DNA of 64,000 bases from Rickettsiales bacterium UBA1997 (GTDB taxonomy: Bacteria; Pseudomonadota; Alphaproteobacteria; Rickettsiales; UBA1997): NCBI GenBank assembly GCA_964202895.1, contig CAXNJM010000002.1, positions 1 to 64,000 of the forward strand, written 5' to 3'. Each line of letters opens with the position of its first letter. Positions within the stretch are counted from its first letter, which is position 1. The notes under the pieces were generated by a model. The model did not search any database. It was not told where the DNA came from and was given only the letters and a program-made list of their open reading frames with translations. Position numbers and translations under genes: made by a program. Positions 4,025 through 35,995 of the stretch are shown piece after piece.

Positions 4025-4549
4025 ATGCTTTTTATCCACAATCCTAGAATGAGACCAATCATTCGTTTGTTTATTATTGGTGCAGTTGTTTTTTTAATAA
4101 CTCGTCCTTATAACTTGATTTGCAATGCCTTCAATAAATGTTCGCCAATTTATTTTAGCGATATTCTAGATTACTTACCAAATAATTATCCCGATTACAA
4201 AGCTTCAATTTTAGTTGAAACCGAGAATGAAATGAAAGATCTCCAATTTGAAGCAATTGAGACGGTTAAAGAGGTTATTATCAATGGCAGAACCAGTGAG
4301 TTTGAATATTTAATAAAAAATAAATCAGATAAGCCAATTAGCTTTTTTCTTGAATTAAAAATTGAGCCAGTTGACTTAGAAAAATATGTCTCGAAACGAA
4401 AATGTTTATGCGGTTCTCGCTTTACTTTGGCTCCAAAGGAAGAAAAAATTATCAAAGCTAAATTAAAGATTGATAAACACATTATGAAAGATTCTCAATT
4501 CAAAAGAGATGAAGGCATGAGAATATTATATAGAGTTAAAGGATATTAA
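4025..4549 (+). CDS. Cox11/CtaG-like cytochrome c oxidase assembly protein (divergent)
   Basis: 174 aa. N-terminal TM. The C-terminal pattern KCLCGSRFTLAPKEE...KIDKHIMKD resembles the Cox11 CFCF...L.PGE...IDP region. Lies next to ccmE. Confidence 0.4.
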   Translation: MLFIHNPRMRPIIRLFIIGAVVFLITRPYNLICNAFNKCSPIYFSDILDYLPNNYPDYKASILVETENEMKDLQFEAIETVKEVIINGRTSEFEYLIKNKSDKPISFFLELKIEPVDLEKYVSKRKCLCGSRFTLAPKEEKIIKAKLKIDKHIMKDSQFKRDEGMRILYRVKGY

Positions 4550-4572
4550 TTAAATAATTTTCCTCAATATTT

Positions 4573-6591
4573 ATGTCCCGCAAGCTTGAAAATCAAGCTT
4601 TGTCAGATAAAATTTTGGTGCAGGTTTTGTTGCCATTAGTTTTTGATAAAAGTTTTACCTATTATGCCGATAGCAATATCAAGGTTGGAGCGGTGGTTGA
4701 GGTAGAGTTTGGTCGTCAAAAAATTTGGGGAATTATCGTTGAAATTAATGTCGCTTCTGCCGAAGAAGCTCCGGCCTATAAAATTAAAGATGTTATCAAT
4801 ATTCATCCAGATTTATTTTTTACTCCTCAAATAATTGAATTTATTGAGAAAATAGCCTCTTATAATCTTGCTTCTCGCGGGATGGTGCTTAAATCTTTTT
4901 TAAATATTATCAATAGCAATAAAAAGCGGAAGAAGGCAATAATCGCTAAGTCTGATGATTTTTGCAATCATCAAATTATATTAAAAAAATTATCCGATCA
5001 ACAGCAAAAAATTGCCGATAAAATAAGCGAAGAAATCAATATTGACAAGCCTTTACCAATATTGCTCGAAGGAGTTACAGGCTCTGGAAAAACTGAAATT
5101 TATTTCAAGCTAATTGCTGAGTTATTGCAAAATCAATCTCCTCAAAAGGCTCAAATATTAATTTTGTTGCCAGAAATTGCTCTTACTAGCCAAATTATTA
5201 AAAGATTTCAAGAGCAATTTAATTTTCCTCCCGCTTTGTGGCATTCGCAAATTACTGCTAAAAATAAATTAGAAATATTTCACGGGCTCAACAGCGGAAG
5301 TTTGCAAATATTGATAGGAGCAAGGTCGGCATTGTTGTTGCCATTCAAAAATCTAAGATTAATTATCGTTGATGAAGAGCACGACCCTTCATTTAAACAA
5401 GAAGATTTATTTAATTTTAGTGCTAGAGATATGGCAATTATCTACGGAAAAATTGCTCAATGCCCCGTTGTTCTTGCTTCGGCAACTCCATCGATTGAAA
5501 GCTTTTATAATTATAAAATTCATAAATATAAGCATTTTCATTTAGAAAGTAAATTCTTTGCCAAAGAAAATAAAATTGATATTGTTGACCTTAAAAATTA
5601 TAAAGATTTTAAAAAAAATCCAATCTCTCCTGCTTTAAAAACCGCCATCCAAGAAACTCTCAATAATCAAAGGCAAGTGTTGCTATTTCTTAATCGCAGA
5701 GGTTATGCCCCTTTAGCAATTTGCAATAAATGTGGCAATAAACAAAAATGCTTAAATTGCGATTTTCATCTGGTTTTTCATAAGAGTAAAAATATTTTAG
5801 CTTGTCATCATTGTGGTTATCAAAAGGCTTCATTTAATCAATGTCAAGATTGCCAAGGTGATGGCGAATTAATTTCTGTGGGAATGGGGGTAGAAAAAAT
5901 ATTAGAACAAGTTGCTTTGCAGTTTGAAGGTGCAAGAATTGCAATGATTACCAGTGATAATATCGATAATTTTACTAAAAGTTCTGAAATAATCGAAAAA
6001 ATTAGCAACCGCGAAATTGATATTATTATTGGCACACAAATGATAACTAAGGGTTATGATTTTAAGCACCTTGCTTTAGTTGGTGTGATTGATGCGGACA
6101 GCTTTTTTTATTCTAGTGATTTGCGATGCACCGAAAGAGCTTATCAAATGCTAACTCAAGTTATTGGCAGGGCGGGGAGGCATGAAGAAGCGGGTAGAAT
6201 TATCTTGCAAAGCCACAATCCTGAAAATTTAATTTTTGAAAAAATTATCAAAGGCAATCAAAATGATTTTTATAATTTTGAGTTATCAAGTCGTCAAATG
6301 CTTGATTTACCGCCATTTGCTAGAATGGCAAGTTTTAAAATTAGCTCGTTAAAAGAGCAGGATGCAAAAAGATTCGCGATAGATTTTATTAAATACTTTC
6401 CCATTGATGAAAAAATTATGCTTATGGGGCCAATATCCGCAAGAATTCAAAGGGTGAAAAACCGTCACAATTTTTTAGTAAATTTAAAAACTCAAAAAAA
6501 TGTTAATATTCAAAAATTAATCAATAATGTTCTAAAAAATATCGAAATTCCCAAAAGCATTAGATTAAATATCGACATTGACCCGCTATAA
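4573..6591 (+). CDS. priA: Primosomal protein N' (PriA helicase)
   Basis: 672 aa; Walker A LLEGVTGSGKTE, DEEH box, Cys-rich zinc-binding region CNKCGN...CLNCD...CHHCG. Confidence 0.9.
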   Translation: MSRKLENQALSDKILVQVLLPLVFDKSFTYYADSNIKVGAVVEVEFGRQKIWGIIVEINVASAEEAPAYKIKDVINIHPDLFFTPQIIEFIEKIASYNLASRGMVLKSFLNIINSNKKRKKAIIAKSDDFCNHQIILKKLSDQQQKIADKISEEINIDKPLPILLEGVTGSGKTEIYFKLIAELLQNQSPQKAQILILLPEIALTSQIIKRFQEQFNFPPALWHSQITAKNKLEIFHGLNSGSLQILIGARSALLLPFKNLRLIIVDEEHDPSFKQEDLFNFSARDMAIIYGKIAQCPVVLASATPSIESFYNYKIHKYKHFHLESKFFAKENKIDIVDLKNYKDFKKNPISPALKTAIQETLNNQRQVLLFLNRRGYAPLAICNKCGNKQKCLNCDFHLVFHKSKNILACHHCGYQKASFNQCQDCQGDGELISVGMGVEKILEQVALQFEGARIAMITSDNIDNFTKSSEIIEKISNREIDIIIGTQMITKGYDFKHLALVGVIDADSFFYSSDLRCTERAYQMLTQVIGRAGRHEEAGRIILQSHNPENLIFEKIIKGNQNDFYNFELSSRQMLDLPPFARMASFKISSLKEQDAKRFAIDFIKYFPIDEKIMLMGPISARIQRVKNRHNFLVNLKTQKNVNIQKLINNVLKNIEIPKSIRLNIDIDPL

Positions 6592-6604: not shown

Positions 6605-6870
6605 GTCTCGCGAAGTCGTGGAATCTATAATCAGCAAGCTTTTAAAATTTCTTGGACGCCTCTAAAAATTCACCTCCAAACCTTTTATTCCCAAGATTTT
6701 CCAAGGGGGTTTTTAGGGGTTTTTCAGGAAATAATAAACAAATAAACTGGGAAAAAGGACTGGGTCCCGACTTTCGTCGGGATGACGGCGGGGTCGGGAT
6801 GACGGCGGGGGGTAGGGATGACAACCGCAGGATAACTCGAGATTGTCCTGCTTCACGAAGTTGCGTAATC
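6605..6870. repeat. RPE-like palindromic repeat element
   Basis: Contains gggtcccgactttcgtcgggatgacgg plus ggtcgggatgacgg modules that are shared with the other elements in this window. Confidence 0.6.
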
Positions 6871-8559: not shown

Positions 8560-9432
8560 ATGATTCCTAAATACACTGAAATAATTCATCCATTATTAAA
8601 GCTTATTGCCAGAGAGGCTTTAACCAGAAGAAGTGCTGCTGAAAATTTAGTAAAAATTTTTAAATTGACTGAAGAAGATAAAAATGAGAAAATTTCTTCT
8701 GGTACTTATAAATTTGAAAATAGGGTTGGTTGGGCTTTTACCTACCTAACCAAAGCTGAATACATAGAATTAACGGAGCGAAAAGCTGTTTATCGTATTG
8801 CAAATTTAGGGTTAGATGCCCTTAAAGAGGCAGAAGAAAAACATATTTTTATAGATAAAAAATATTTAGAAAAAAATTCGATTAATTACTTAAATAATTG
8901 GCAAATAAAAAAGCAAAATAACGAAATTCAATTAAATGAAGAAAATGATGAAAGTGATGTAATTTTTGATTTAGAGGCTGAGCTAGAAAAAGTCGATAAT
9001 GAGTTTAACTTTATGTTATTGCAAAAAATTAAAGCGATGAGTTGGCAAGAGTTCGAAGATTTGTGCGCTACTCTTCTTGAGAAAATGGGTTATGGAGTGG
9101 CATCAAAAAGACAAATTAGAGTTGGTGACGGTGGAATTGATGGAGAAATTTTTGAAGATGAACTTGGTTTAAAAGGAAAGATTTACATTCAGGCAAAAAA
9201 ATGGGATAACAATAATATACAGCCTAAAGATATGAAGGAGTTTCTATATAATGTTAGGGGCAATAAGGGTGTATTTATTACCACATCTGATTTTAGTCAA
9301 AAATCAAGAGAAGAGGCTCAAAATTACAAAGAGGGCAAGGTGGCATTGATAAATTATAGTGATTTAATCAAGCTTTGCAAAAAATATCAAGTTTTCTGTG
9401 AAAAACAGACTATTGAAATTTTTAAATTATAA
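8560..9432 (+). CDS. mrr: Mrr-like type IV (modification-dependent) restriction endonuclease
   Basis: 290 aa. N-terminal Mrr_N winged-helix region (YKFENRVGWAFTYLTKA). C-terminal Mrr catalytic core (RVGDGGIDGEIFEDELGLKGKIYIQAKKW...GVFITTSDF) collinear with E. coli Mrr. Confidence 0.75.
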   Translation: MIPKYTEIIHPLLKLIAREALTRRSAAENLVKIFKLTEEDKNEKISSGTYKFENRVGWAFTYLTKAEYIELTERKAVYRIANLGLDALKEAEEKHIFIDKKYLEKNSINYLNNWQIKKQNNEIQLNEENDESDVIFDLEAELEKVDNEFNFMLLQKIKAMSWQEFEDLCATLLEKMGYGVASKRQIRVGDGGIDGEIFEDELGLKGKIYIQAKKWDNNNIQPKDMKEFLYNVRGNKGVFITTSDFSQKSREEAQNYKEGKVALINYSDLIKLCKKYQVFCEKQTIEIFKL

Positions 9433-9618
9433 GCGCCAATTTGTAAAAAAAAAGAGATATGGTGTTGGTTGTATTTCTAATAGCAGAAAGCTACCAAAGA
9501 ATGAAGATTTATCAAAAGATTCTGCCATTAAAAAATGTGTTAAGGGTCATTTTGCCATAAAAGCTGAAGACTTAGCAAAATTAATAAATATAAATATAAC
9601 TAAAAATATCATTGCTTT

Positions 9619-9990
9619 TTAAGTGCCACAAAAAGTGTTTAGCACTCTTTCGTGTTCTTGCGGTGGTGAGTAGTATTTGTGGTATTTTTTATTTTCCGTG
9701 AAAGGGTTTTGGATTGCTTGTAAAAATTCATTAAATTCACTGTAATCATTTTTAAAAACTGATTGTTGAATTATGTCGGCGATGATGTGATTTCTAGCTA
9801 TTAAAATCGGATTTACTTTATCCATTGCGGTGGCAATTTCATTGAGTTCGGAGCTTTCTTTTTTTAAGCGATTTTGCCATTTTTCTTGCCAATCAAGATA
9901 TTTTTTATCTGCTACATAAAAGCTGGTCTTTTTAGTGTTTTCTTGACTGCTTTCTTGAGTGCTTTCTGGCATTAAAACTTTGTTTGGTAT
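9619..9990 (-). pseudogene. Duplicated 3' fragment of selO (C-terminal about 120 codons)
   Basis: 9614-9990 is near-identical in nucleotide sequence to 12420-12796, the genuine selO 3' end. The fragment encodes ESTQESSQENTKKTSFYVADKKYLDWQEKW...TFCGT. Confidence 0.8.
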
Positions 9991-9992
9991 AT

Positions 9993-10029
9993 GGGGAACC
10001 CCGCAAGGTGGGGCAAGGCTCGTGCCCCG
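9993..10029. repeat. Compound palindromic element; left inverted copy flanking the R-M cassette
   Basis: ggggaaccccgcaaggtggggcaaggctcgtgccccg. Its reverse complement recurs at 12246-12286. Confidence 0.7.
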
Positions 10030-10075
10030 TATATAATTTATAAATACATACAAAAGCCCATTGGGTTTTGGTATA

Positions 10076-10489
10076 TTAAATTTTTTCAACAATTTCTTTT
10101 ATAACTTCTTCAGGTTTTCTAATTTTATCTTCATCAATAAGTTGATAAACTCTATTTTTTGCTATAAAGATATTATTTCTTTTTAGTTTTGGGTCTCTTC
10201 CAATGGTAGCAAGATTAAAGTTATAAAATTTACCTTGTTTTAAATTAAATTTACCAAATATGCTATTAGATAAATAAACATCGGTAGTGCATTCAATATA
10301 AATTTTCTTCTTTTTGGTGATTAGTTTAAAGCTTCCAGCGATATGAAATTTAGAAATCTCCTCTCTTTCTGCTTTTATGCCATTCGCTATTTCAATAAAA
10401 ATATCTTCATCTAGATTTTTAAATTCTTGGATTTTTAAAACATCTTTTCTAATGCCATTAGCAGAATAAAATGAAGTTAATTTTTTTCT
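10076..10489 (-). pseudogene. Start-less 137-codon ORF in the -1 frame directly after the endonuclease gene (decayed gene or frameshift extension)
   Basis: Open from the stop at 10490-10492 down to the stop at 10076-10078 on the minus strand. It has no ATG/GTG/TTG. It is reached from the endonuclease frame by a -1 slip on an A7 tract. Confidence 0.3.
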
Positions 10490-11130
10490 TCAAATAAATT
10501 GGTTTCATACATATTCATACCTCTTTCAAAGGGAAAAGAAAAATTTTCTAGATCTTGACTTGTTAAAATAAACTCAATTTTACATTCGGCATTTAAATTA
10601 GAAAATTTTTGAAAAATAGTGCTTTTTTCTTTATCTTCAACTTCTTTTAAAAACATACCTGTTAAATCGGTTGTTTTGGGATTGTTGTTTAGTGTATCGG
10701 ATCTTAAAGAAGCATAAATCATATAAATTTGTTTGTTTTTTGCGGATCTTTTGATGGTGTTGTATTGTTCCTCGGTTAGACCAATCCAGCGATCATTCTC
10801 GGAAGTGTTTTTAATTTCTATAAAAACTTGAGGCTCTCTAAGAGTGCTATTTTCTACGATTTCAACTATATCTGGCTCGTCCCTGACTTCGTTATTGCCT
10901 TTTATATCAAAATCTAAAATATATTTTTTATTTGGGTTAAATTCTGTTAATATTTTTTCAATTCCAATTTCTGTTAATTTGCCGAGTGTAAAGGCATCTA
11001 AAACTGCACCTAAGCCTCTTGGCTCTCCAGTAGTTCTGCCTGTTGTATTTTTAGTTGGATCTATGTAGTAATTTGTTCCAAATTCAAAAACTCTTTTAAA
11101 ATCGTCTAAATTCAATTTAAAATACTGCAT
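10477..11130 (-). CDS. Type II restriction endonuclease (PD-(D/E)xK fold)
   Basis: 217 aa; PDIVEI...FIEIK arrangement fits a PD-x(n)-E-x-K motif. Sits immediately downstream of the C5-methyltransferase gene with a 4 bp gap. Confidence 0.55.
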   Translation of the reverse strand: MQYFKLNLDDFKRVFEFGTNYYIDPTKNTTGRTTGEPRGLGAVLDAFTLGKLTEIGIEKILTEFNPNKKYILDFDIKGNNEVRDEPDIVEIVENSTLREPQVFIEIKNTSENDRWIGLTEEQYNTIKRSAKNKQIYMIYASLRSDTLNNNPKTTDLTGMFLKEVEDKEKSTIFQKFSNLNAECKIEFILTSQDLENFSFPFERGMNMYETNLFEEKN

Positions 11131-11134
11131 AAAA

Positions 11135-12142
11135 TTATAAAATTGCCTGTAAGATATTTTTGGCTATTGCTTCCACAACTGGCAAGGATATTGAATTTCC
11201 AGCCTGTTTATACTGATTGCTTCTATTTACAGTTTTTGGGAAGGTAAAATTTGGGGGAAAGCCTTGCAATCTAATGCATTCCATTGGCACTAATTTTCTT
11301 ATGCCTTTTTTGTCTTTAATGATTGGTACATTATGGCCTCCTGTTCCCATATTTGCAGTAAGTGTTGGGCAAACTTCGCTTTTATTTTCTCTAGTATAGA
11401 CTCTTCGCCATTGATATGCTGTATTTTCTTTAATTATATCATTTTTAATTTTCTCAAAAAGAGGTTTATCGTTGTAATAATAGTAATTATCAACCTCTGT
11501 TTTTTCTAAAATATCGATTAATTTTTGGGTTAATTTTTGAGGCTTAGGAAATTCAAACTTATCGTGCTCGTCTTTATTTTTGAAGCCTAAAATATAAAGC
11601 CTCTCTCTGTTTTGCGGTAAGTTTCCATATTCCATGGTATTTAGAACTTTTTCCTTTACAAAATAACCCTGCTTCTTAATTAGTTCTTTTATGTAGTTGT
11701 AGGTTTCTCCTTTATCGTGAGAATATAAATTTTTGACATTTTCTAAAAAAATTACCTTTGGTTGTTTTATTTTTATAATTTCAATAATATTAAAAATTAA
11801 GTCTCCCCTATCTTTGTCATCAAAGCCTTTGCGATAACCAGCTATACTGAAAGGCTGACAAGGAAACCCGCCACATAAAATGTCATGCTCTGGAATATCT
11901 TTTGGATCGATTTTGGTGATATCTTTGTTGAATAAATTTTTATCTACAAAAAGATCCTCCTCAAATAAATCGGGGCTAATTTTTTGAAAATTATATTTAT
12001 AAGTTAATCTTGCTTGTTGATCTATTTCGCTGGCAAAAACACACTTGGATCCTTGTCTATGAAGAGCAAAATGAAAGCCACCGATTCCTGCAAATAAATC
12101 AATAAATTTTATGTCATTGATATTTGTCTCTTTTTTTGTCAT
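11135..12142 (-). CDS. DNA (cytosine-5)-methyltransferase
   Basis: 335 aa. Motif I FAGIGGF, motif IV GFPCQPFS, motif VI ENV, motif VIII QNRERLYILG, motif X GNSISLPVV. Confidence 0.9.
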   Translation of the reverse strand: MTKKETNINDIKFIDLFAGIGGFHFALHRQGSKCVFASEIDQQARLTYKYNFQKISPDLFEEDLFVDKNLFNKDITKIDPKDIPEHDILCGGFPCQPFSIAGYRKGFDDKDRGDLIFNIIEIIKIKQPKVIFLENVKNLYSHDKGETYNYIKELIKKQGYFVKEKVLNTMEYGNLPQNRERLYILGFKNKDEHDKFEFPKPQKLTQKLIDILEKTEVDNYYYYNDKPLFEKIKNDIIKENTAYQWRRVYTRENKSEVCPTLTANMGTGGHNVPIIKDKKGIRKLVPMECIRLQGFPPNFTFPKTVNRSNQYKQAGNSISLPVVEAIAKNILQAIL

Positions 12143-12245
12143 TGTTTTTTTATTTTTTAAACTTTTTATTAAGTAAAAATTTTTTATTTCTTAGATGGTG
12201 GCATATCAAAGTCCTCTGGACCTTGATATATATTATAAATATTTT

Positions 12246-12286
12246 ACGGGGCACGAGCCCCGCCCCGCCTCGCGGGGTTCCCCACA
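12246..12286. repeat. Compound palindromic element; right inverted copy flanking the R-M cassette
   Basis: acggggcacgagccccgccccgcctcgcggggttcccc, the reverse complement of the 9993-10029 element. Confidence 0.7.
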
Positions 12287-12424
12287 TACCAAAGCATATA
12301 CCAAGGCAAAATTTTTCAAGCTTGAAGTGGCTTTGGTATATTATAACTAGCGAGCTGAATTTTGCAAAGGAGTTTTTATAAAACAAGATATTTATTTATC
12401 TGTAAGAAATTGTGAAAAATCGAT

Positions 12425-13912
12425 TTAAGTGCCACAAAAAGTGTTTAGCACTCTTTCGTGTTCTTGCGGTGGTGAGTAGTATTTGTGGTATTTTTTATTT
12501 TCCGTGAAAGGGTTTTGGATTGCTTGTAAAAATTCATTAAATTCACTGTAATCATTTTTAAAAACTGACTTTTTAATTATATTGGCGATAATGTGATTTC
12601 TTGCTATTAAAATCGGATTTACTTTATCCATTGCGGTGGCAATTTCATTGAGTTCGGAGCTTTCTTTTTTTAAGCGATTTTGCCATTTTTCTTGCCAATC
12701 AAGATATTTTCTATCTGCCACATAAAAACTAGTCTTTTTAGTGTTCTCTTGACTGCTTTCTTGAATGCTTTCTGGCAGTAAGATTTTGCTTAAAATTCTA
12801 AAGCCATTGGTAAAATCAATTTTATTGTCTTCTAATATTTTTAAAAAATCATCGATTAAATTTTTATCTTCTTGATTGTTCTTAAAGCTTGAAATCCCTA
12901 GCTTTTTAGACATTTTTTGATAATAGATTTTATCAAATAAAACTGCAAATTGATTCAGCTCCGTTTCCACTGCTTTGACGGCTTCTTTGATATCATTGTT
13001 TATTAGCGGTAAAAGAGCTTCAGCAAACTTGATTAAATTCCATAAAATAATGTTTTTTTGATTAGAAAAGCTATATCTTCCGCTTTTATCAATAAAGCTA
13101 AAAACCTTATTGCTTTCATATTCGTCAATAAAGGCACAGGGCCCATAATCTAGGGTTTGACCAGATATTGCAATATTGTCAGTATTCATAACCCCGTGAA
13201 TGAAGCCAACTGATATCCAAGAGGTAATAAGCTCTGCTTGCAACTTCATTACTGATTTTAACAAATAAAGATATTTATCATTTTGATGGCTATATTCTGG
13301 GAAATGCCTGTCAATGGCATAATCTGCCAAGATTTTGAGGTTTTTTATGTCGTTTCTGCAAGCGAAATATTCAAAGGTTCCAACTCTAATATGGCTTTTA
13401 GCGATTCTAGTAATGATGCTTGCGGGCAAGAATTCATCTCTTTGAATGAATTCATCTGATTTTATGATTGCAAGAGATCTGGTGGTGGGAATTTTAAGAT
13501 AATGCATCGCCTCGCTAACGATATATTCTCTAATCGCAGAGTTTAAGGGGCATTTGCCGTCGCCATTTCTAGAAAAAAAACTTCTACCCGAGCCTTTCAG
13601 TTGAATATCGTGTAGGATATTATTTTTGTCTTTTATTTCTCCTAATAAAACAGCCCTTCCATCGCCCAATTGGGGCACAAAATGACCAAATTGATGCCCG
13701 GCATAAGCCAGAGAAATTGGCTTAGAATTAGGCAATAATTCATTGCCAGAAAAAATATCAACTAAATATTTTGCATCCTCGCCTATTTTAATACCTAGCT
13801 CCGTGGCTAATTTTTGGTTAAATGCAATTAATTGCGGATTTTTAATCTTATCGGGCTGTTGTTCTTTGTAAAAATCGCCACCTAATTGATGATAAGAATT
13901 AGTGATTTTCAT
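12425..13912 (-). CDS. selO: Protein adenylyltransferase SelO (YdiU/UPF0061 family)
   Basis: 495 aa; MKITNSYHQLGGDFY N-terminus, GHQFGHF...LGDGRAVLLGE kinase-like core, TFCGT C-terminus. Confidence 0.85.
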   Translation of the reverse strand: MKITNSYHQLGGDFYKEQQPDKIKNPQLIAFNQKLATELGIKIGEDAKYLVDIFSGNELLPNSKPISLAYAGHQFGHFVPQLGDGRAVLLGEIKDKNNILHDIQLKGSGRSFFSRNGDGKCPLNSAIREYIVSEAMHYLKIPTTRSLAIIKSDEFIQRDEFLPASIITRIAKSHIRVGTFEYFACRNDIKNLKILADYAIDRHFPEYSHQNDKYLYLLKSVMKLQAELITSWISVGFIHGVMNTDNIAISGQTLDYGPCAFIDEYESNKVFSFIDKSGRYSFSNQKNIILWNLIKFAEALLPLINNDIKEAVKAVETELNQFAVLFDKIYYQKMSKKLGISSFKNNQEDKNLIDDFLKILEDNKIDFTNGFRILSKILLPESIQESSQENTKKTSFYVADRKYLDWQEKWQNRLKKESSELNEIATAMDKVNPILIARNHIIANIIKKSVFKNDYSEFNEFLQAIQNPFTENKKYHKYYSPPQEHERVLNTFCGT

Positions 13913-14917
13913 TTAGAATTCCCAGTCTTTTCTAATGCTGTGGCAGGTGTAGCCATTTGGGTTTTTCGATAAATAATTCTGATGATATTCTTCTGCTTTA
14001 TAAAATTTATCGAATTTTTCTAGGCTAGTGACAATTTTTTTTGGAAACAGCCCTGATTTATTGGCTTTGTCGATTAAATCTTGTGCTGTTTTTTTCTGCT
14101 CCTCATTTGAGTAAAAAATGGCACTTCTATATTGAGTGCCAATATCATTTCCTTGCTTGTTTAAAGTGGTTGGATCGTGAATTTTAAAAAAGAATCTCAG
14201 AATTTTTTCATAAGAAATTTTTGCAGGGTCAAAGGTAATTTCTATAGATTCGGCATGGTTGCTGATTCCCGAGCTTACAATTTCATAGGTTGGGTTCGGT
14301 ATATTGCCACCACTATAGCCATTTACAACATCGATTACCCCTGTTAATTTAGAAAATAAGTCTTCCATCCCCCAGAAACAGCCTCCACTGACTATTGCTT
14401 TTTGATATTTTACCGCTTTTTGTTCATCAAAAATCTTTAAATATTCTTCATAGCCTTCTTTTTTTAGATTCTCTTTAGGGATAAATCGCAACGATGCGGA
14501 GTTAATGCAATAGCGGGCTCCCCCTTTATTTTTTGGACCATCGCTAAAAATGTGCCCTAGATGGATGTCTGAATCTTTTGATCTTGCCTCGGTTCTGCTC
14601 ATTCCGTGAGAGTAATCGGTTTTTTCTTTTATTGAATTATCGTTGATGGGCTTTGTAAAGCTTGGCCAGCCAGTGCCAGAATCAAATTTATCTTTCGAAG
14701 AAAAAAGTGGCTTACCGCTTAGAACATCAACATAAATGCCTTCTGCTTTGTTGTTCCAATATTCATTATCAAATGCCCTTTCAGTGCCATTTTGAAAGAT
14801 TACATTTTTTTGCAATTCAGTTAAATTTTTATCATTATTCATAATATTGCTCGCTATAATAGTGTTGTTATTAAAAAGAAGTAATAACAACATTAAACCA
14901 GTTGTTTTAAGATTCAT
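13913..14917 (-). CDS. msrBA: Bifunctional peptide methionine sulfoxide reductase MsrB/MsrA, secreted
   Basis: 334 aa; signal peptide; MsrB motif RYCINSASL; MsrA motif GGCFWG. Confidence 0.85.
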
Positions 14918-15014: not shown

Positions 15015-15175
15015 TGCCGTTAGCAGAGAGTTCGAAGCCAACTCACCCGTCATCCTGCACGAAGCGAAGCAAAGTTGCAGGATCTATTGCTTTTCTGGAT
15101 CCTGCAACTTCGTGCAGGATGACGGAACTAAAACACTCGTCATGCCGTTGAAAAACGGCACCCAGAAATAATATG
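15015..15175. repeat. RPE-like palindromic element
   Basis: Long imperfect palindrome gtcatcctgcacgaag...cttcgtgcaggatgac plus the cgtcatgccgttgaaaaacggcacccagaaa module. Confidence 0.6.
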
Positions 15176-26377: not shown

Positions 26378-27660
26378 TGAAGGGGTGGAGTAAGCGATCA
26401 ATAGGTGACATTGCAAAAGTTACTTCGAGTAAGCGTATTTTTCTTAGCGATTATGTTGAATTCGGAATTCCTTTTTGGAGATCTAAAGAGGTAATAGAGC
26501 AATTTCATGGGAAAAATGTTTCAACGGAGCTGTTCATTGCCAAAGAAAAATATAATGAAATAAAAGCAAAATTTGGCGTTCCAAACAAAGGAGACATTCT
26601 ATTAACCAGCGTTGGCACTGTTGGGGTTCCACATCTCGTTAGAAATGATTCACCATTTTATTTTAAAGATGGAAATCTGACTTGGGTCAAAGATATTATT
26701 GAAGAAGTAGAGCCTTATTACATTTATCTTTGGCTTTCGTCCAATGTTGGGCAAAAAGAGATCCAAAATAATCTTATAGGTTCGTCCCAAAAAGCGCTTA
26801 CGATTGATTCTTTAAAAAAAATAAAAATCCCACTCCCGCCACTCCCACTTCAAAAGAAAATTGCGGGGATTTTATCGGCTTATGATGACTTGATCGAAAA
26901 CAATTTAAGGGCACTCAAGTTGCTGGAAGAAATGGCACAAATCACCTACGAAGAATGGTTCGTGCGCCTCCGCTTCCCCGGCCACGCCACAACCCCAATC
27001 AATCCCACAACTGGCTTGCCTGAGGGGTGGAAGAAAGTTAAACTACGAGAAGTCCTGAAACTAAATTATGGTAAAGCTTTAAAAGCAGATACTCGTATTC
27101 AAGGCAGTATTCCTGTTTATGGATCGTCAGGAATAGTTGGGATGCATAATTTTGCTTTAGTTGATGGGGTGGGAATAATCGTAGGGCGCAAAGGTAATGT
27201 CGGAAGTGTTTTTTGGTCACATGACAGCTTTTATCCAATAGACACCGTCTATTTTGTAACCTCTTTGCATGAACTGCATTTTCTTTACTACGCTCTCAGA
27301 AATTCTAAATTTGATAATAGCGATGCCGCCGTTCCAGGACTTAATCGTGATGCTGCGTATGCAGTTGAAATAACTCTGCCTCCAAAAAATATTGAAAAGC
27401 ATTTTGCTGATTTGGTGGAGCAGAATTTTTTAACCATTCAATTATTTGAAGAGCAAAACCAACGCCTTCGCGAAGCTCGTGATATCTTACTTCCACGCCT
27501 AATGACGGGAGTCATTGATGTTGAAAAATATCCCGCCGTCGTCATGCCGTTGCAAAACGGCACCCAGAAAGAGGTAGGGCTGGGTCCCGACTTTCGTCGG
27601 GATGACGGTAAGGGTCGAGATGACGGAACTAAAAATAATAACAATGAGGTAAAGCTATGA
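26374..27660 (+). CDS. hsdS: Type I R-M specificity subunit with RPE-encoded C-terminal tail
   Basis: 428 aa. Two TRDs. Central conserved LPPLPLQKKIAGILSAYDDLIENN. The C-terminal 35 aa (VMPLQNGTQKEVGLGPDFRRDDGKGRDDG...) are encoded by the RPE at 27533-27625. Confidence 0.85.
   Translation: MMKGWSKRSIGDIAKVTSSKRIFLSDYVEFGIPFWRSKEVIEQFHGKNVSTELFIAKEKYNEIKAKFGVPNKGDILLTSVGTVGVPHLVRNDSPFYFKDGNLTWVKDIIEEVEPYYIYLWLSSNVGQKEIQNNLIGSSQKALTIDSLKKIKIPLPPLPLQKKIAGILSAYDDLIENNLRALKLLEEMAQITYEEWFVRLRFPGHATTPINPTTGLPEGWKKVKLREVLKLNYGKALKADTRIQGSIPVYGSSGIVGMHNFALVDGVGIIVGRKGNVGSVFWSHDSFYPIDTVYFVTSLHELHFLYYALRNSKFDNSDAAVPGLNRDAAYAVEITLPPKNIEKHFADLVEQNFLTIQLFEEQNQRLREARDILLPRLMTGVIDVEKYPAVVMPLQNGTQKEVGLGPDFRRDDGKGRDDGTKNNNNEVKL
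27533..27625. repeat. RPE-like element inserted in frame at the hsdS 3' end
   Basis: cgtcatgccgttgcaaaacggcacccagaaagag...gggtcccgactttcgtcgggatgacgg. Confidence 0.7.
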
Positions 27661-31885: not shown

Positions 31886-32293
31886 ATGAACAGAGAATTA
31901 AAAGAATCAGAATTTTTATTATATAACTCAGATAACGGAGATGTTAAAATTGAGGTATTTTTAAAAGATGAAACAGTTTGGCTCACACAAAAGAAGATGG
32001 CTGAGTTGTTTGATGTTGATAGAACGGCAATTACCAAGCATCTAAATAATATCTTTGAAGAAGGAGAGTTAAGGAAAAACTCAACTAGTGCAAAAATTGC
32101 ACTAGTTCAAAAAGAAGGAAACAGAGAAGTTTCGCGAGAGCTAGAATTTTACAACCTAGATGCCATTATTGCCGTTGGTTATAGGGTTAATTCTAAAAGA
32201 GCGACAAATTTTAGAATTTGGGCAACTCGTCATGCCGTTGAAAAACGGCACCCAGAAAGAGTTGGGGCTGGATCCCGACTTTCGTCGGGATGA
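31886..32293 (+). pseudogene. RhuM-family gene fragment truncated by an RPE
   Basis: The N-terminal 112 aa are homologous to the rhuM copy at 25349 (VWLTQKKMAELF...YNLDAIIAVGYRVNS...RIWAT). The frame then runs into RPE sequence. Confidence 0.6.
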
Positions 32294-32500
32294 CGGAGAA
32301 GGAGGATTCGGATCCTTGTAGTGAAGTTATGCTTTTTATTTCCTCCCCTTGTTGCCTTCTTTTTGGATTACGGAATTAAAACACTCGTCATGCCGTTGAA
32401 AAACGGCACCCAGAAAGAGTTGGGGCTGGATCCCGACTTTCGTCGGGATGGCGGTAAAGGTCGCGATGACGGTGAAGGTAAGGGTCAGGATGACGACATT
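32225..32500. repeat. Two RPE-like elements (32225-32300 and 32380-32500) followed by a 38 bp hsdR-derived scar
   Basis: cgtcatgccgttgaaaaacggcacccagaaagagttggggctggatcccgactttcgtcgggatg occurs twice. 32500-32537 is identical to hsdR 28153-28190 (ggcattccgttggtgttttttgagtt.aaggctc). Confidence 0.65.
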
Positions 32501-35639: not shown

Positions 35640-35995
35640 CCGCAAGAAAGTTGCAGGAACCAGAAGGAAAAGAAGCTGGGTCCCGACTTTCGTCGGGATG
35701 ACGAAGAAATGAAGCCCCAGAAAGAAGGCAACAACGGGCTTCAGCCCCTTGTGGTGAAGTTATAATTCTCCAGCAATCAACGACAAGGGGTTGAAACCCC
35801 TTGTTGCCTTTAGAATCTTGGGGGTTAAAACCCCTTGTTGCCTTTAGTAATAGAGTTCGAAGCCAGCTCACTCGTCATGCCGTTGCAAAACGGCACCCAG
35901 AAAGAGTTATGAGCTGGGTCCCGACTTTCGTCGGGATGACGGTAAAGGTCGGGGACGGCAGGGGTCGGGATGAGTGATGACGGAAACTCAATACT
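35640..35995. repeat. Cluster of RPE-like elements containing a 27 bp direct repeat
   Basis: gggtcccgactttcgtcgggatgacg occurs twice. The cluster contains ggggtt(g/a)aaaccccttgttgcctttag at 35787-35813 and at 35821-35847. Confidence 0.7.

What the first reader, a model, noticed from the sequence alone, without database searches (positions are those of the whole stretch)
9614..12796. Type II R-M cassette bracketed by inverted palindromic elements and a ~375 bp direct duplication of the selO 3' end
9614-9990 and 12420-12796 are near-identical direct repeats, both covering the last ~120 codons of selO. Only the downstream copy is attached to a full selO gene. Between them sit three minus-strand genes (C5-methyltransferase, PD-ExK endonuclease, start-less ORF). 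These are flanked on both sides by the same compound palindromic element in inverted orientation (9993-10029 versus 12246-12286). A cargo flanked by inverted repeats with a several-hundred-bp duplication of the target matches the 'insertion with long target duplication' mode reported for R-M gene complexes in Helicobacter genome comparisons. It suggests that this R-M unit was acquired as a mobile module, with the palindromic element as its ends.
Basis: seen in the sequence. Interest (0 to 1): 0.75.

Follow-up and report, generated by a model that had tools for sequence, protein, structure and literature searches.

The report
Restriction-modification cassette with duplicated selO tail
A small restriction-modification gene pair was spliced into the end of the housekeeping gene selO together with a spare copy of that gene's last 368 bases, which is a known way for such cassettes to enter genomes; the inverted palindromes beside it are probably separate small repeat elements, not the cassette's ends.

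Summary
Window 9618-9985 and 12424-12791 are a 368-bp direct repeat (95.4% identical) of the selO 3' end, and only the second copy continues into an intact selO. Between the copies lie a C5-methyltransferase gene and one PD-(D/E)XK endonuclease gene. A composite palindrome flanks the pair in inverted orientation (9983-10074 and 12203-12293).

Independent metagenome contigs reproduce every junction, so this is not an assembly artefact. Related strains carry different content between selO and fumC. One has a single selO tail and no cassette. Others show two further insertions flanked by duplicated selO or fumC 3' ends, one of them around a non-R-M gene.

The "insertion with long target duplication" reading therefore holds (Nobusato 2000; Furuta 2010). 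The "palindromes are the mobile ends" reading does not. An orthologous cassette lacks both palindromes and another lacks one. The left copy is truncated at a microhomology with selO, there is no short target duplication, and the same composite occurs elsewhere beside an IS630-type transposase end.

The likeliest mechanism is one-ended homologous recombination plus illegitimate joining between alternative island haplotypes. This is a new member of a known kind, of moderate-to-low interest.

The parts
8560..9432 (+). mrr-type (Type IV, methyl-directed) restriction gene, 290 aa. It forms the left flank of the site.
   Evidence: Pfam Mrr_N and Mrr_cat. PADLOC mREase_IV, E 9e-34. The same fumC-mrr-intergenic-selO-tail order is seen in L016-L018.
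9433..9617 (.). 'Alpha' intergenic region, inferred to be the original sequence downstream of selO.
   Evidence: It is contiguous with the selO tail in L016-L018. Its first 28-40 nt resemble the sequence directly after the intact, single-tail selO of L007.
9618..9985 (-). Direct-repeat copy A: a detached selO 3' fragment (about 122 codons plus the stop codon). The selO-derived part is certain from 9619 to 9982, and 9983-9985 is microhomology with the palindrome.
   Evidence: Pfam SelO match to profile positions 385-465. It carries the 'A-type' haplotype also found in the full selO genes of L005, L007 and L008.
9983..10074 (.). IR-L: a truncated copy of the composite palindromic repeat. It consists of TTTGGTATAT (9983-9992), a GC-rich double-hairpin core (9993-10029), an AT linker, and a short AT-rich palindrome (10048-10074) that abuts the R stop codon.
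10076..11130 (-). Restriction endonuclease gene (PD-(D/E)XK N-terminal domain plus a beta-rich C-terminal domain), inactivated here by a -1 frameshift. The N-terminal 217 codons are 10477-11130 and the C-terminal part is 10076-10482.
10483..10489 (-). A7 homopolymer tract, the frameshift site (A8 in L004, L010 and L001).
11135..12142 (-). C5 cytosine DNA methyltransferase gene, 335 aa, intact.
   Evidence: PF00145, E 3e-85. TIGR00675. PADLOC MTase_II. M.HhaI, E 2e-58, but only the catalytic core aligns well. The exact protein was found on contigs in 4 other samples, 5 contigs read in all.
12203..12341 (.). IR-R: a complete copy of the composite palindromic repeat. It consists of a short palindrome (12203-12229), a GC-rich core (12247-12283) and a long AT-rich hairpin (12296-12341). 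The outer arm of that hairpin is TACCAAAGCCACTTCAAGCTTG.
   Evidence: (fold z-score -5.1). The block 12197-12337 is absent from L010. A homologous composite is present in L012.
12340..12368 (-). Promoter-like site TTTGCA-17-TATAAT facing M-R, inside the 'beta' spacer.
   Evidence: 10 of 12 matches. In L010 it lies directly upstream of M, with no palindrome in between. This is a consensus match only; function was not tested.
12342..12423 (.). Remainder of the 'beta' spacer. It is part of the inserted DNA and lies outside IR-R.
   Evidence: It travels with M-R in L001, L002, L004, L008, L009, L010 and L014.
12424..12791 (-). Direct-repeat copy B, the 3' end of the intact selO gene (12425-13912).
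   Evidence: The last 272 nt are identical to the full selO of L001.

Best explanation
The segment between selO and fumC is a strain-variable defence islet in an uncultured Rickettsiales-affiliated lineage. In the window's lineage, a roughly 2.44-kb Type II R-M unit is joined into selO 368 nt before its stop codon. The unit consists of the beta spacer with a putative promoter, a C5 methyltransferase gene and a PD-(D/E)XK endonuclease gene. A second, complete selO 3' end sits on the other side of the unit, so selO stays intact. This is an 'insertion with long target duplication'.

Proposed mechanism (inferred, not shown): DNA from a strain with a different islet haplotype (selO-beta-palindrome-M-R-palindrome...) recombined with an 'empty' haplotype (selO-alpha-mrr-fumC). 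One end recombined homologously within selO. The other end was joined illegitimately, at a CAAA/AAGCAAA microhomology, between the broken palindromic repeat and selO codon ~373. On this model the 'duplication' is the donor's own selO tail. Its outer boundary falls where the alpha and beta haplotypes stop being homologous, 1 nt past the stop codon.

The inverted palindromes are two diverged copies of a 95-140-nt MITE-like composite repeat, related to the terminus of an IS630-type element. They are bystanders, or at most hairpin terminators or insulators, and are not the recombining ends.

The cassette is now decaying. R is frameshifted here, internally deleted in L001 and wholly deleted in L014, while M stays intact.
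For: Shown:
- The DR, IR and gene anatomy.
- All junctions reproduced in independent contigs.
- Both the cassette-bearing and cassette-free states exist in the population. L007 has an intact selO with a single tail followed by an alpha-like flank and other genes.
- The M-R unit plus beta spacer is 99.9% identical between the window and L001, whereas the flanks are 96-97% identical and arranged differently.
- The copy A / copy B differences are not random decay. They fall into two haplotype blocks that also segregate among full-length selO genes. The A-type is in L005, L007, L008, L016 and L017. The B-type is in L001 and L002.
- Two further events of the same geometry occur at this locus. In L001, a 148-bp DR (selO -115 to beta +34, 99.3% identical) flanks a 606-aa non-R-M gene. 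In L010, a 15-nt DR that starts exactly at the fumC stop codon flanks a TdeIII-like R-M together with a 196-nt selO tail piece.
- In all three events the outer DR boundary is where alternative islet haplotypes lose homology.
- The palindromes are dispensable and are not terminal.

Established knowledge:
- R-M insertion with long, variable target duplication and no mobility gene is documented (Nobusato 2000, via Furuta 2010, PMC2853133). Those repeats often span stop codons, which leaves the target gene intact.
- Homology-facilitated illegitimate recombination integrates DNA by homology at one end and an illegitimate join at the other (PMC3240628).
Against: - No perfectly clean empty site was found. 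That would be selO-alpha-mrr on one contig with a single tail. L007 shares only about 28-40 nt of the alpha flank before diverging, and L016-L018 end inside the tail.
- The polarity of events is inferred: insertion versus deletion, and whether the beta haplotype pre-existed.
- The A/B allelic differences could also have arisen after an in-situ duplication, through later recombination with other strains.
- The junction differs by 1 nt from the simplest microhomology product.
- The absence of the palindromes in L010 could be secondary deletion, because L010 has other small deletions nearby.
- Only one end of the IS630-like element was seen, so the TIR assignment is provisional.
- Nothing is known about DNA uptake in this organism.
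- All comparison data are metagenome contigs.
Confidence: 0.65

Rival explanations
1. The R-M pair is the cargo of a transposon-like, non-autonomous element whose ends are the inverted palindromes, perhaps mobilised in trans by an IS630-type transposase. The element inserted into selO and created the duplication on insertion.
For: - The two arms are in inverted orientation and tightly bracket M-R.
- The outer arm of the IR-R hairpin, TACCAAAGCCACTTCAAGCTTG, matches 20 of 22 nt of the sequence at the end of an IS630-type (DDE_3) transposase ORF in L012, and it faces outward as a right-end TIR should.
- IR-flanked R-M units with transposon-like structure are known (Furuta 2010).
Against: - The left arm lacks the outward-facing TIR. 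It is cut after about 9 nt of the inner hairpin arm, at the selO junction.
- No short target-site duplication is present. The 368-bp repeat is unlike IS630's TA duplication.
- About 82 nt of beta spacer outside IR-R belongs to the insert.
- L010 has the orthologous cassette without either arm, and L001-L003 have only one.
- The arms are only 79% identical to each other, whereas the cassette is 95-99.9% identical between strains.
- No transposase is found in the 64-kb window.
- No other IR-bounded copy was found in the JGI metagenome or viral scans.
Confidence: 0.12
2. True in-situ long target duplication, the classical Nobusato-type picture. The cassette entered a single selO copy, and 368 bp of the recipient's own sequence was duplicated during insertion (staggered breaks and fill-in, or template switching). 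The two copies were identical at first and diverged later through gene conversion with other strains.
For: - The DR-insert-DR anatomy meets the criteria of Furuta 2010.
- Both window copies lack the 24-nt repeat unit that most other strains carry. That could reflect common origin or intragenomic conversion.
- The intragenomic tail copies in L001 and L010 are 99-100% identical.
Against: - The outer repeat boundary falls exactly at the selO stop codon (+1 nt). In L010 the boundary falls exactly at the fumC stop codon. That coincidence is unexplained by random staggered breaks but expected if the repeat ends where two haplotypes lose homology.
- The A/B differences are clustered population haplotypes, not scattered substitutions.
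Confidence: 0.18
3. Site-specific integration of a small genomic island into an attB in the selO 3' end. The element would carry a replacement 3' end, as prophages e14 and phage 21 do in icd. The integrase would since have been lost.
For: - The target gene is kept intact by a replacement 3' end that runs exactly to the stop codon.
- Insertions recur at the same gene end in different strains.
Against: - No integrase or recombinase gene lies in or next to the insert.
- The three events have different inner junctions (-368, -196 and -115 from the selO stop) rather than one fixed core.
- One event uses the fumC end instead.
Confidence: 0.03
4. Assembly artefact: chimeric or mis-joined contigs from co-occurring strains create an apparent duplication.
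For: - The source is evidently a MAG-type assembly, the locus is polymorphic in the population, and several short-read contigs break inside the tail.
Against: - The two copies differ at 17 positions, so they are not a collapsed or duplicated read pile.
- Each junction recurs in independent samples and assemblers (ENA, JGI, Logan): L004, L008, L009, L014, L016-L018.
Confidence: 0.02

Closest known systems
R-M gene complexes inserted with long target duplication (Nobusato et al. 2000, Gene 259:99; Furuta, Abe & Kobayashi 2010, NAR 38:2428, PMC2853133)
   Same: - R and M lie together in a small insert (2.44 kb) with no integrase or transposase gene.
- The insert is flanked by a long direct repeat of target sequence (368 bp, above the 30-bp criterion).
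- The repeat reaches the stop codon, so the target gene stays intact.
- A related genome has a single copy of the repeat and no R-M.
   Different: - The host is an uncultured Rickettsiales-affiliated lineage, not among the genera listed in that study (per the passages read).
- The empty site is only partial, of the 'substitution' type on the far flank.
- The two repeat copies are distinct population alleles.
- The same locus shows further events of the same geometry, one with a non-R-M gene. This points to recombination between islet haplotypes rather than an R-M-specific activity.
Transposon-like R-M units flanked by imperfect inverted repeats with an 8-bp target duplication (Xanthomonas oryzae, Neisseria gonorrhoeae; Furuta et al. 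2010, Fig. 11)
   Same: Imperfect inverted repeats of 60-90 nt bracket a Type II R-M pair.
   Different: - There is no short target duplication.
- The repeats are not unique to the unit (L012).
- The repeats are not always present with the cassette (L010, L001).
- One arm is truncated, and the insert extends beyond the other arm.
Homology-facilitated illegitimate recombination (one homologous anchor plus a microhomology join; described for naturally transformable bacteria and E. coli conjugation, PMC3240628)
   Same: - One side of the incoming segment is homologous (selO, or fumC in L010).
- The other side joins at a 4-7-nt microhomology.
- Foreign DNA is trapped next to a conserved gene.
   Different: - This is inferred only from sequence. 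No transformation or conjugation data exist for this organism.
- The join falls inside the anchor gene, so a gene-end 'duplication' results rather than a deletion.
IS630/Tc1-mariner-derived MITEs and other small palindromic repeats (for example Rickettsia palindromic elements); comparison from general knowledge
   Same: - Short (40-140 nt), hairpin-forming, AT-rich units with TA-flanked terminal inverted repeats (TAYCAAAG...CTTTGRTA).
- One unit matches the terminus next to a DDE_3 transposase ORF.
- Hairpin stems show compensatory changes between copies.
   Different: - The composite contains a GC-rich double-hairpin core with no counterpart I could identify. There is no Rfam match.
- Only three loci with copies were found, so the copy number in the genome is unknown.
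- Only one IS end was seen.
Prophage e14 / phage 21 integration into icd with a replacement 3' end (from general knowledge)
   Same: The inserted DNA supplies an alternative 3' end of the target gene, and the original 3' end is left as a downstream fragment.
   Different: - There is no integrase.
- The junction positions are variable.
- The cargo is two genes only.

Membership tests
R-M insertion with long target duplication (criteria of Furuta et al. 2010) | Both an R and an M gene homologue lie inside the inserted sequence. | tested here: met
   M: PF00145, E 3e-85. R: 351-aa partner with a PD-(D/E)XK fold, directly adjacent to a C5 MTase gene in every locus retrieved, including the distant L011. 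Enzymatic activity was not tested.
R-M insertion with long target duplication (criteria of Furuta et al. 2010) | The insert is shorter than 20 kb and contains no integrase or transposase gene. | tested here: met
   The insert is about 2.44 kb (9983/9986-12423). Its only ORFs of substance are M and the frameshifted R.
R-M insertion with long target duplication (criteria of Furuta et al. 2010) | The flanking direct repeat is longer than 30 bp. | tested here: met
   368 bp at 95.4% identity.
R-M insertion with long target duplication (criteria of Furuta et al. 2010) | A related genome has an empty site: a single copy of the repeated sequence, no R-M, and similarity on both flanks. | tested here: inconclusive
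   L007 has a single tail, no M-R, a full right flank (selO, msrBA) and only about 28-40 nt of the left (alpha) flank before other genes. L016-L018 show alpha-tail contiguity but end inside the tail.
Transposon-like R-M unit with terminal inverted repeats | The inverted repeats form the outermost ends of the inserted DNA. | tested here: not met
   The insert continues about 82-130 nt beyond IR-R (the beta spacer, conserved with M-R in the palindrome-less L010). IR-L is truncated.
Transposon-like R-M unit with terminal inverted repeats | A short direct target-site duplication lies immediately outside the inverted repeats. | tested here: not met
   The flanks differ (AAACTTTG on the left, GCATATAC on the right). 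There is no TA or 8-bp duplication.
Transposon-like R-M unit with terminal inverted repeats | The repeats are unique to the unit and travel with it. | tested here: not met
   The composite is present in L012 next to unrelated genes. It is absent from L010, and only one copy is present in L001-L003.
Integrase-mediated island at the 3' end of a gene | A tyrosine or serine recombinase gene, and one fixed att core at all junctions. | tested here: not met
   No such gene is found at 8.5-14 kb. The junctions lie at -368, -196 and -115 from the selO stop.
IS630-family MITE (for the palindromic units) | Terminal inverted repeats matching those of an autonomous IS630-family element. | tested here: inconclusive
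   There is a 20/22 match to the sequence overlapping the end of a DDE_3 transposase ORF in L012. Only one IS end is available and no full-length IS was seen.
IS630-family MITE (for the palindromic units) | A TA target-site duplication with a clean empty site. | tested here: inconclusive
   The 141-nt block is an indel relative to L010, and TA dinucleotides flank it. However, the left flank differs (GGTGGCA versus AAGAA), so the empty site is not clean.
Type II R-M system | A sequence-specific methyltransferase with a cognate endonuclease of the same specificity. | not testable with these tools
   Only domain and fold assignments are available. The TRD does not align to M.HhaI, and there are no methylome data.

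The most novel reading that the evidence does not exclude
The 'long target duplications' that flank R-M and other islet genes may not be duplications made at insertion at all. They may be a by-product of one-ended homologous recombination between alternative island haplotypes. The donor fragment would bring its own copy of the conserved flanking gene's 3' end, and its other end would be joined illegitimately inside the recipient's copy. This predicts that the outer repeat boundary is always the point where the haplotypes lose homology. That is what is seen here three times: selO stop +1 nt, the fumC stop codon, and beta +34. If general, it would give a concrete and testable mechanism for a phenomenon whose mechanism is not settled in the literature read here (first described in Helicobacter in 2000).

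A less likely variant is that the palindromic composite is the end of an IS630-derived non-autonomous element that once carried the R-M pair.
Probability: 0.35. Interest if true: 0.55.

Novelty: new member of a known kind. Interest (0 to 1): 0.35.

Why it matters
- It adds a population-resolved example of R-M insertion with long target duplication, from an uncultured, AT-rich Rickettsiales-like lineage. At least four alternative contents occupy one selO-fumC islet, with three nested gene-end duplications.
- The boundary pattern offers a testable mechanistic hint: one-ended homologous recombination plus illegitimate joining.
- The locus shows typical R-M decay. R is lost three independent ways while M is kept.
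- A newly acquired m5C methyltransferase sits next to a methyl-directed Mrr-type enzyme.
- None of this overturns current understanding.

Tried and rejected
- An exact-pattern scan for the IR core (GGGGAACCCCGCRAGGYGGGGC) in JGI metagenomes returned 0 hits, because orthologous copies vary by 1-2 nt.
- A looser pattern gave 4 loci. Two were GC-rich chance matches (L013, L015) and two were informative (L012, L014).
- Viral-contig scans for the core and for the TIR-like motif returned 0 hits.
- Exact look-ups of the window's selO, mrr, msrBA, fumC and truncated R proteins found no contig positions, although the sequences are in the protein collection from a 128-kb NCBI contig.
- The genome-contig scan with selO gave only a 3-kb MAG contig that ends at the selO stop (L005) and a 44%-identical relative (L006). 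Neither serves as an empty site.
- Rfam found nothing credible in 9300-13000.
- R has no match in Pfam (only a sub-threshold NOV_C hit), NCBIfam, PADLOC, PDB sequences, plasmids or phages.
- M specificity could not be inferred. Only the catalytic core aligns to M.HhaI.
- A sliding-window comparison of selO across strains showed mosaic recombination but no clean donor block next to copy B.
- tblastn for an IS630-type transposase in the window was negative.
- Integron attC and integrase-att readings were considered and dropped. The repeats are in inverted, not direct, orientation, there is no recombinase, and the junctions are variable.

Full report
OBSERVATION

The window (33% G+C) contains a 368-bp direct repeat, 9618-9985 versus 12424-12791. 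It is 95.4% identical with 17 mismatches, 13 of which sit in two clusters. It is the longest repeat in the 64 kb. Both copies begin 1 nt beyond a selO stop codon. Copy B is the end of an intact 495-aa selO (12425-13912, minus strand; PF02696). Copy A is a detached fragment of about 122 codons.

The inverted repeat is real. The arms are 61 nt at 87% complementarity (9983-10043 and 12233-12293) and extend to 92 nt at 79%. The GC-rich core occurs only at these two places in the window, against 0 expected.

NOT AN ARTEFACT

The window's own proteins are on record from a 128-kb NCBI contig. Related proteins are labelled 'Rickettsiales bacterium' by their sources. Independent contigs from ENA, JGI and Logan assemblies reproduce each junction:
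- L004 spans tail B, the spacer, IR-R, M, an intact R, IR-L and the start of tail A, at 99.1% identity.
- L008, L009 and L014 span selO, the spacer, IR-R and M.
- L016-L018 span fumC, mrr, the intergenic region and the tail.
- L014 links M to the mrr side.

THE LOCUS IS A VARIABLE ISLET

Relatives with 92-97% flank identity carry different content between selO and fumC.
- Window type: selO, 'beta' spacer, IR-R, M, R, IR-L, tail A (368 nt), 'alpha' intergenic, mrr, fumC.
- L001/L002/L003 type:
  - Order: selO; 34 nt of beta; a 606-aa membrane ORFan; 115 nt of selO tail plus beta; IR-R; M; R with a roughly 171-bp internal deletion; then fumC directly.
  - It has no IR-L, no mrr and no 368-nt tail.
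  - A 148-bp direct repeat (99.3% identical) flanks the ORFan.
- L010 type:
  - The same ORFan family, then beta directly joined to M, with the 141-nt palindromic block 12197-12337 absent.
  - An intact R follows, then a 15-nt copy of the fumC end, a 196-nt selO tail piece, a second Type II R-M (N6/N4 MTase plus TdeIII-like fragments), and fumC.
  - A 15-nt direct repeat, CTAAACCATTTCTTC, begins exactly at the fumC stop codon and flanks that second R-M.
- L014: M is retained, but R, IR-L and tail A are deleted.
- L007: an intact selO with a single tail is followed by an alpha-like flank and then two unrelated genes of unknown function. It has no M-R.

L007 is the nearest thing to an empty site, but it is clean on only one flank.

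THE DUPLICATION

The anatomy meets the published criteria for 'R-M insertion with long target duplication' (R and M both in the insert, insert under 20 kb, repeat over 30 bp). That study also noted that such repeats often span a stop codon, so the target gene stays intact (Furuta et al. 2010, PMC2853133; it cites Nobusato et al. 2000). Three further observations bear on mechanism.
- The differences between copies A and B are not scattered decay. They form haplotype blocks that also segregate among full-length selO genes in the population. The A-type is in L005, L007, L008, L016 and L017. The B-type is in L001 and L002. The last 272 nt of copy B are identical to L001's selO.
- The outer boundary of the repeat is exactly where the two alternative downstream sequences (alpha and beta) begin, 1 nt past the stop codon. 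The L010 fumC repeat likewise starts at the stop codon. The L001 repeat ends 34 nt into beta, where the ORFan-bearing and M-R-bearing arrangements diverge.
- The inner junction of copy A lies within a short microhomology. The palindromic composite reads ...ATATACCAAAGCAAA..., selO reads ...TTTTAAGCAAAG..., and the junction reads ...ATATACCAAACAAAG....

From these I infer one-ended homologous recombination in selO plus an illegitimate join. This resembles homology-facilitated illegitimate recombination (defined in PMC3240628), acting between a donor carrying selO-beta-M-R and a recipient carrying selO-alpha-mrr. On this view the second tail is the donor's. The step is inferred, not shown. A true in-situ duplication followed by allelic exchange remains possible.

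THE PALINDROMES

Each arm is a composite of four parts: a short AT-rich palindrome, an AT linker, a GC-rich double hairpin, and the start of a long AT-rich hairpin. IR-R plus its hairpin (12197-12341) folds far better than shuffled controls (z -5.1). Between copies, one GC hairpin shows an A-T to G-C compensatory change, with an A·C intermediate.

Five observations argue that the arms are not the ends of the mobile unit.
- The inserted DNA continues beyond IR-R into the beta spacer. That spacer holds a TTTGCA-17-TATAAT promoter-like site facing M. In L010 the site sits directly upstream of M with no palindrome.
- L010 lacks both arms, and L001-L003 lack IR-L.
- IR-L is truncated about 9 nt into the long hairpin, so it has no outward-facing terminus.
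- No short target duplication is present.
- The whole composite (78% identical over 139 nt) occurs in L012 in a different context. There it abuts TACCAAAGCTACTTCAATCTTG, which overlaps the 3' end of an IS630-type DDE_3 transposase ORF (PF13358, E 6e-23). The outer arm of the window's hairpin matches that sequence at 20 of 22 nt.

The units have TA-flanked TAYCAAAG...CTTTGRTA ends. They therefore look like nested MITE-like derivatives of an IS630-family element, but only one IS end was seen. A more distant M-R homologue (L011, 78% nt identity) shares only the ORFs. R homologues are widespread, including in Patescibacteria-labelled genomes, but none was found on known plasmids or phages. The arms may incidentally act as outward-facing hairpin terminators. 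That was not tested.

STATE OF THE SYSTEM

The M protein is identical in contigs from 4 other samples, 5 contigs read in all. The M-R-beta block is 99.9% identical between the window and L001 despite 3-4% flank divergence and different arrangements. This indicates recent exchange of the cassette allele within the population. R has been inactivated at least three ways: a frameshift here, an internal deletion in L001 and L003, and whole-gene loss in L014. It is intact in L004 and L010. This is the usual path to an orphan methyltransferase. Specificity is unknown, because only the catalytic core aligns with M.HhaI.

VERDICT

The long-target-duplication reading is supported, and the palindromes-as-ends reading is not. 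This is a new member of a known kind. Its main added value is the multi-haplotype view of one islet and the boundary pattern that suggests how such 'duplications' arise.

Noticed in passing
window 6753-6821, 15117-15168, 27539-27626, 32225-32302, 32383-32472, 35668-35708, 35869-35973; also L007 1-216 and L001 ~4523-4637: A second, unrelated GC-rich intergenic repeat family of about 80-100 nt. Its consensus is CACTCGTCATGCCGTTGAAAAACGGCACCCAGAAAGAGTT.GGGCTGGGTCCCGACTTTCGTCGGGATGACGG, with two hairpins. It is present in at least 7 copies in the window and in related strains.
   Followed up: partly
whole window: Several 4-bp palindromes are strongly avoided relative to a Markov expectation. ACGT occurs 2 times against 38 expected (ratio 0.05). 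The ratios for the others are GTAC 0.19, GGCC 0.31, GCGC 0.38 and CCGG 0.41. This suggests long exposure to Type II restriction systems.
   Followed up: partly
window 8560-9432 (+): An intact Mrr-type, methyl-directed (Type IV) restriction gene lies about 1.7 kb from the acquired, intact C5 methyltransferase gene. This is a potential conflict between a modification-dependent nuclease and a new methylation. L001 instead has a different 410-aa Mrr_cat gene and a Type I R-M/Fic cluster beyond fumC.
   Followed up: no
L001 7749-9569; L010 191-2050; L002 683-2497: A 604-619-aa membrane-anchored ORFan is inserted at the selO 3' end, flanked by a 148-bp duplication. It has only 4 homologues in 5.8 billion proteins. 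These are only 54-57% identical between strains whose neighbouring genes are 92-96% identical in DNA, so the gene is evolving very fast. It has no Pfam, PADLOC or NCBIfam match.
   Followed up: partly
L010 4338-6167: A second Type II R-M (N6/N4 MTase plus a fragmented TdeIII-like endonuclease) is inserted at the fumC 3' end together with a 196-nt selO tail piece. It is flanked by a 15-nt direct repeat that starts at the fumC stop codon.
   Followed up: partly
L012 868-1383 (OGWF01005794.1): An array of three TA-flanked mini-palindromes plus the GC-rich core sits directly next to the terminus of an IS630-type (DDE_3) transposase gene. This may be the parent element of the palindromic units.
   Followed up: partly
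window ~14395-14427 (msrBA, 13913-14917, minus strand): The fused msrB/msrA gene is 334 aa in the window but 383 aa in L001 and L007, because of an indel of roughly 145 nt. selO also varies in length (487-503 aa) through a 24-nt imperfect repeat region near window 12700-12775.
   Followed up: no
L005 (CAMDGT010000169.1): This MAG contig is titled 'Rickettsia typhi', but its selO is 88% identical to the window's, and the contig ends exactly at the selO stop codon. The species label looks doubtful for a lineage seen here only in metagenome assemblies and MAGs. The contig break fits a repeat or branch point at the selO end.
   Followed up: no
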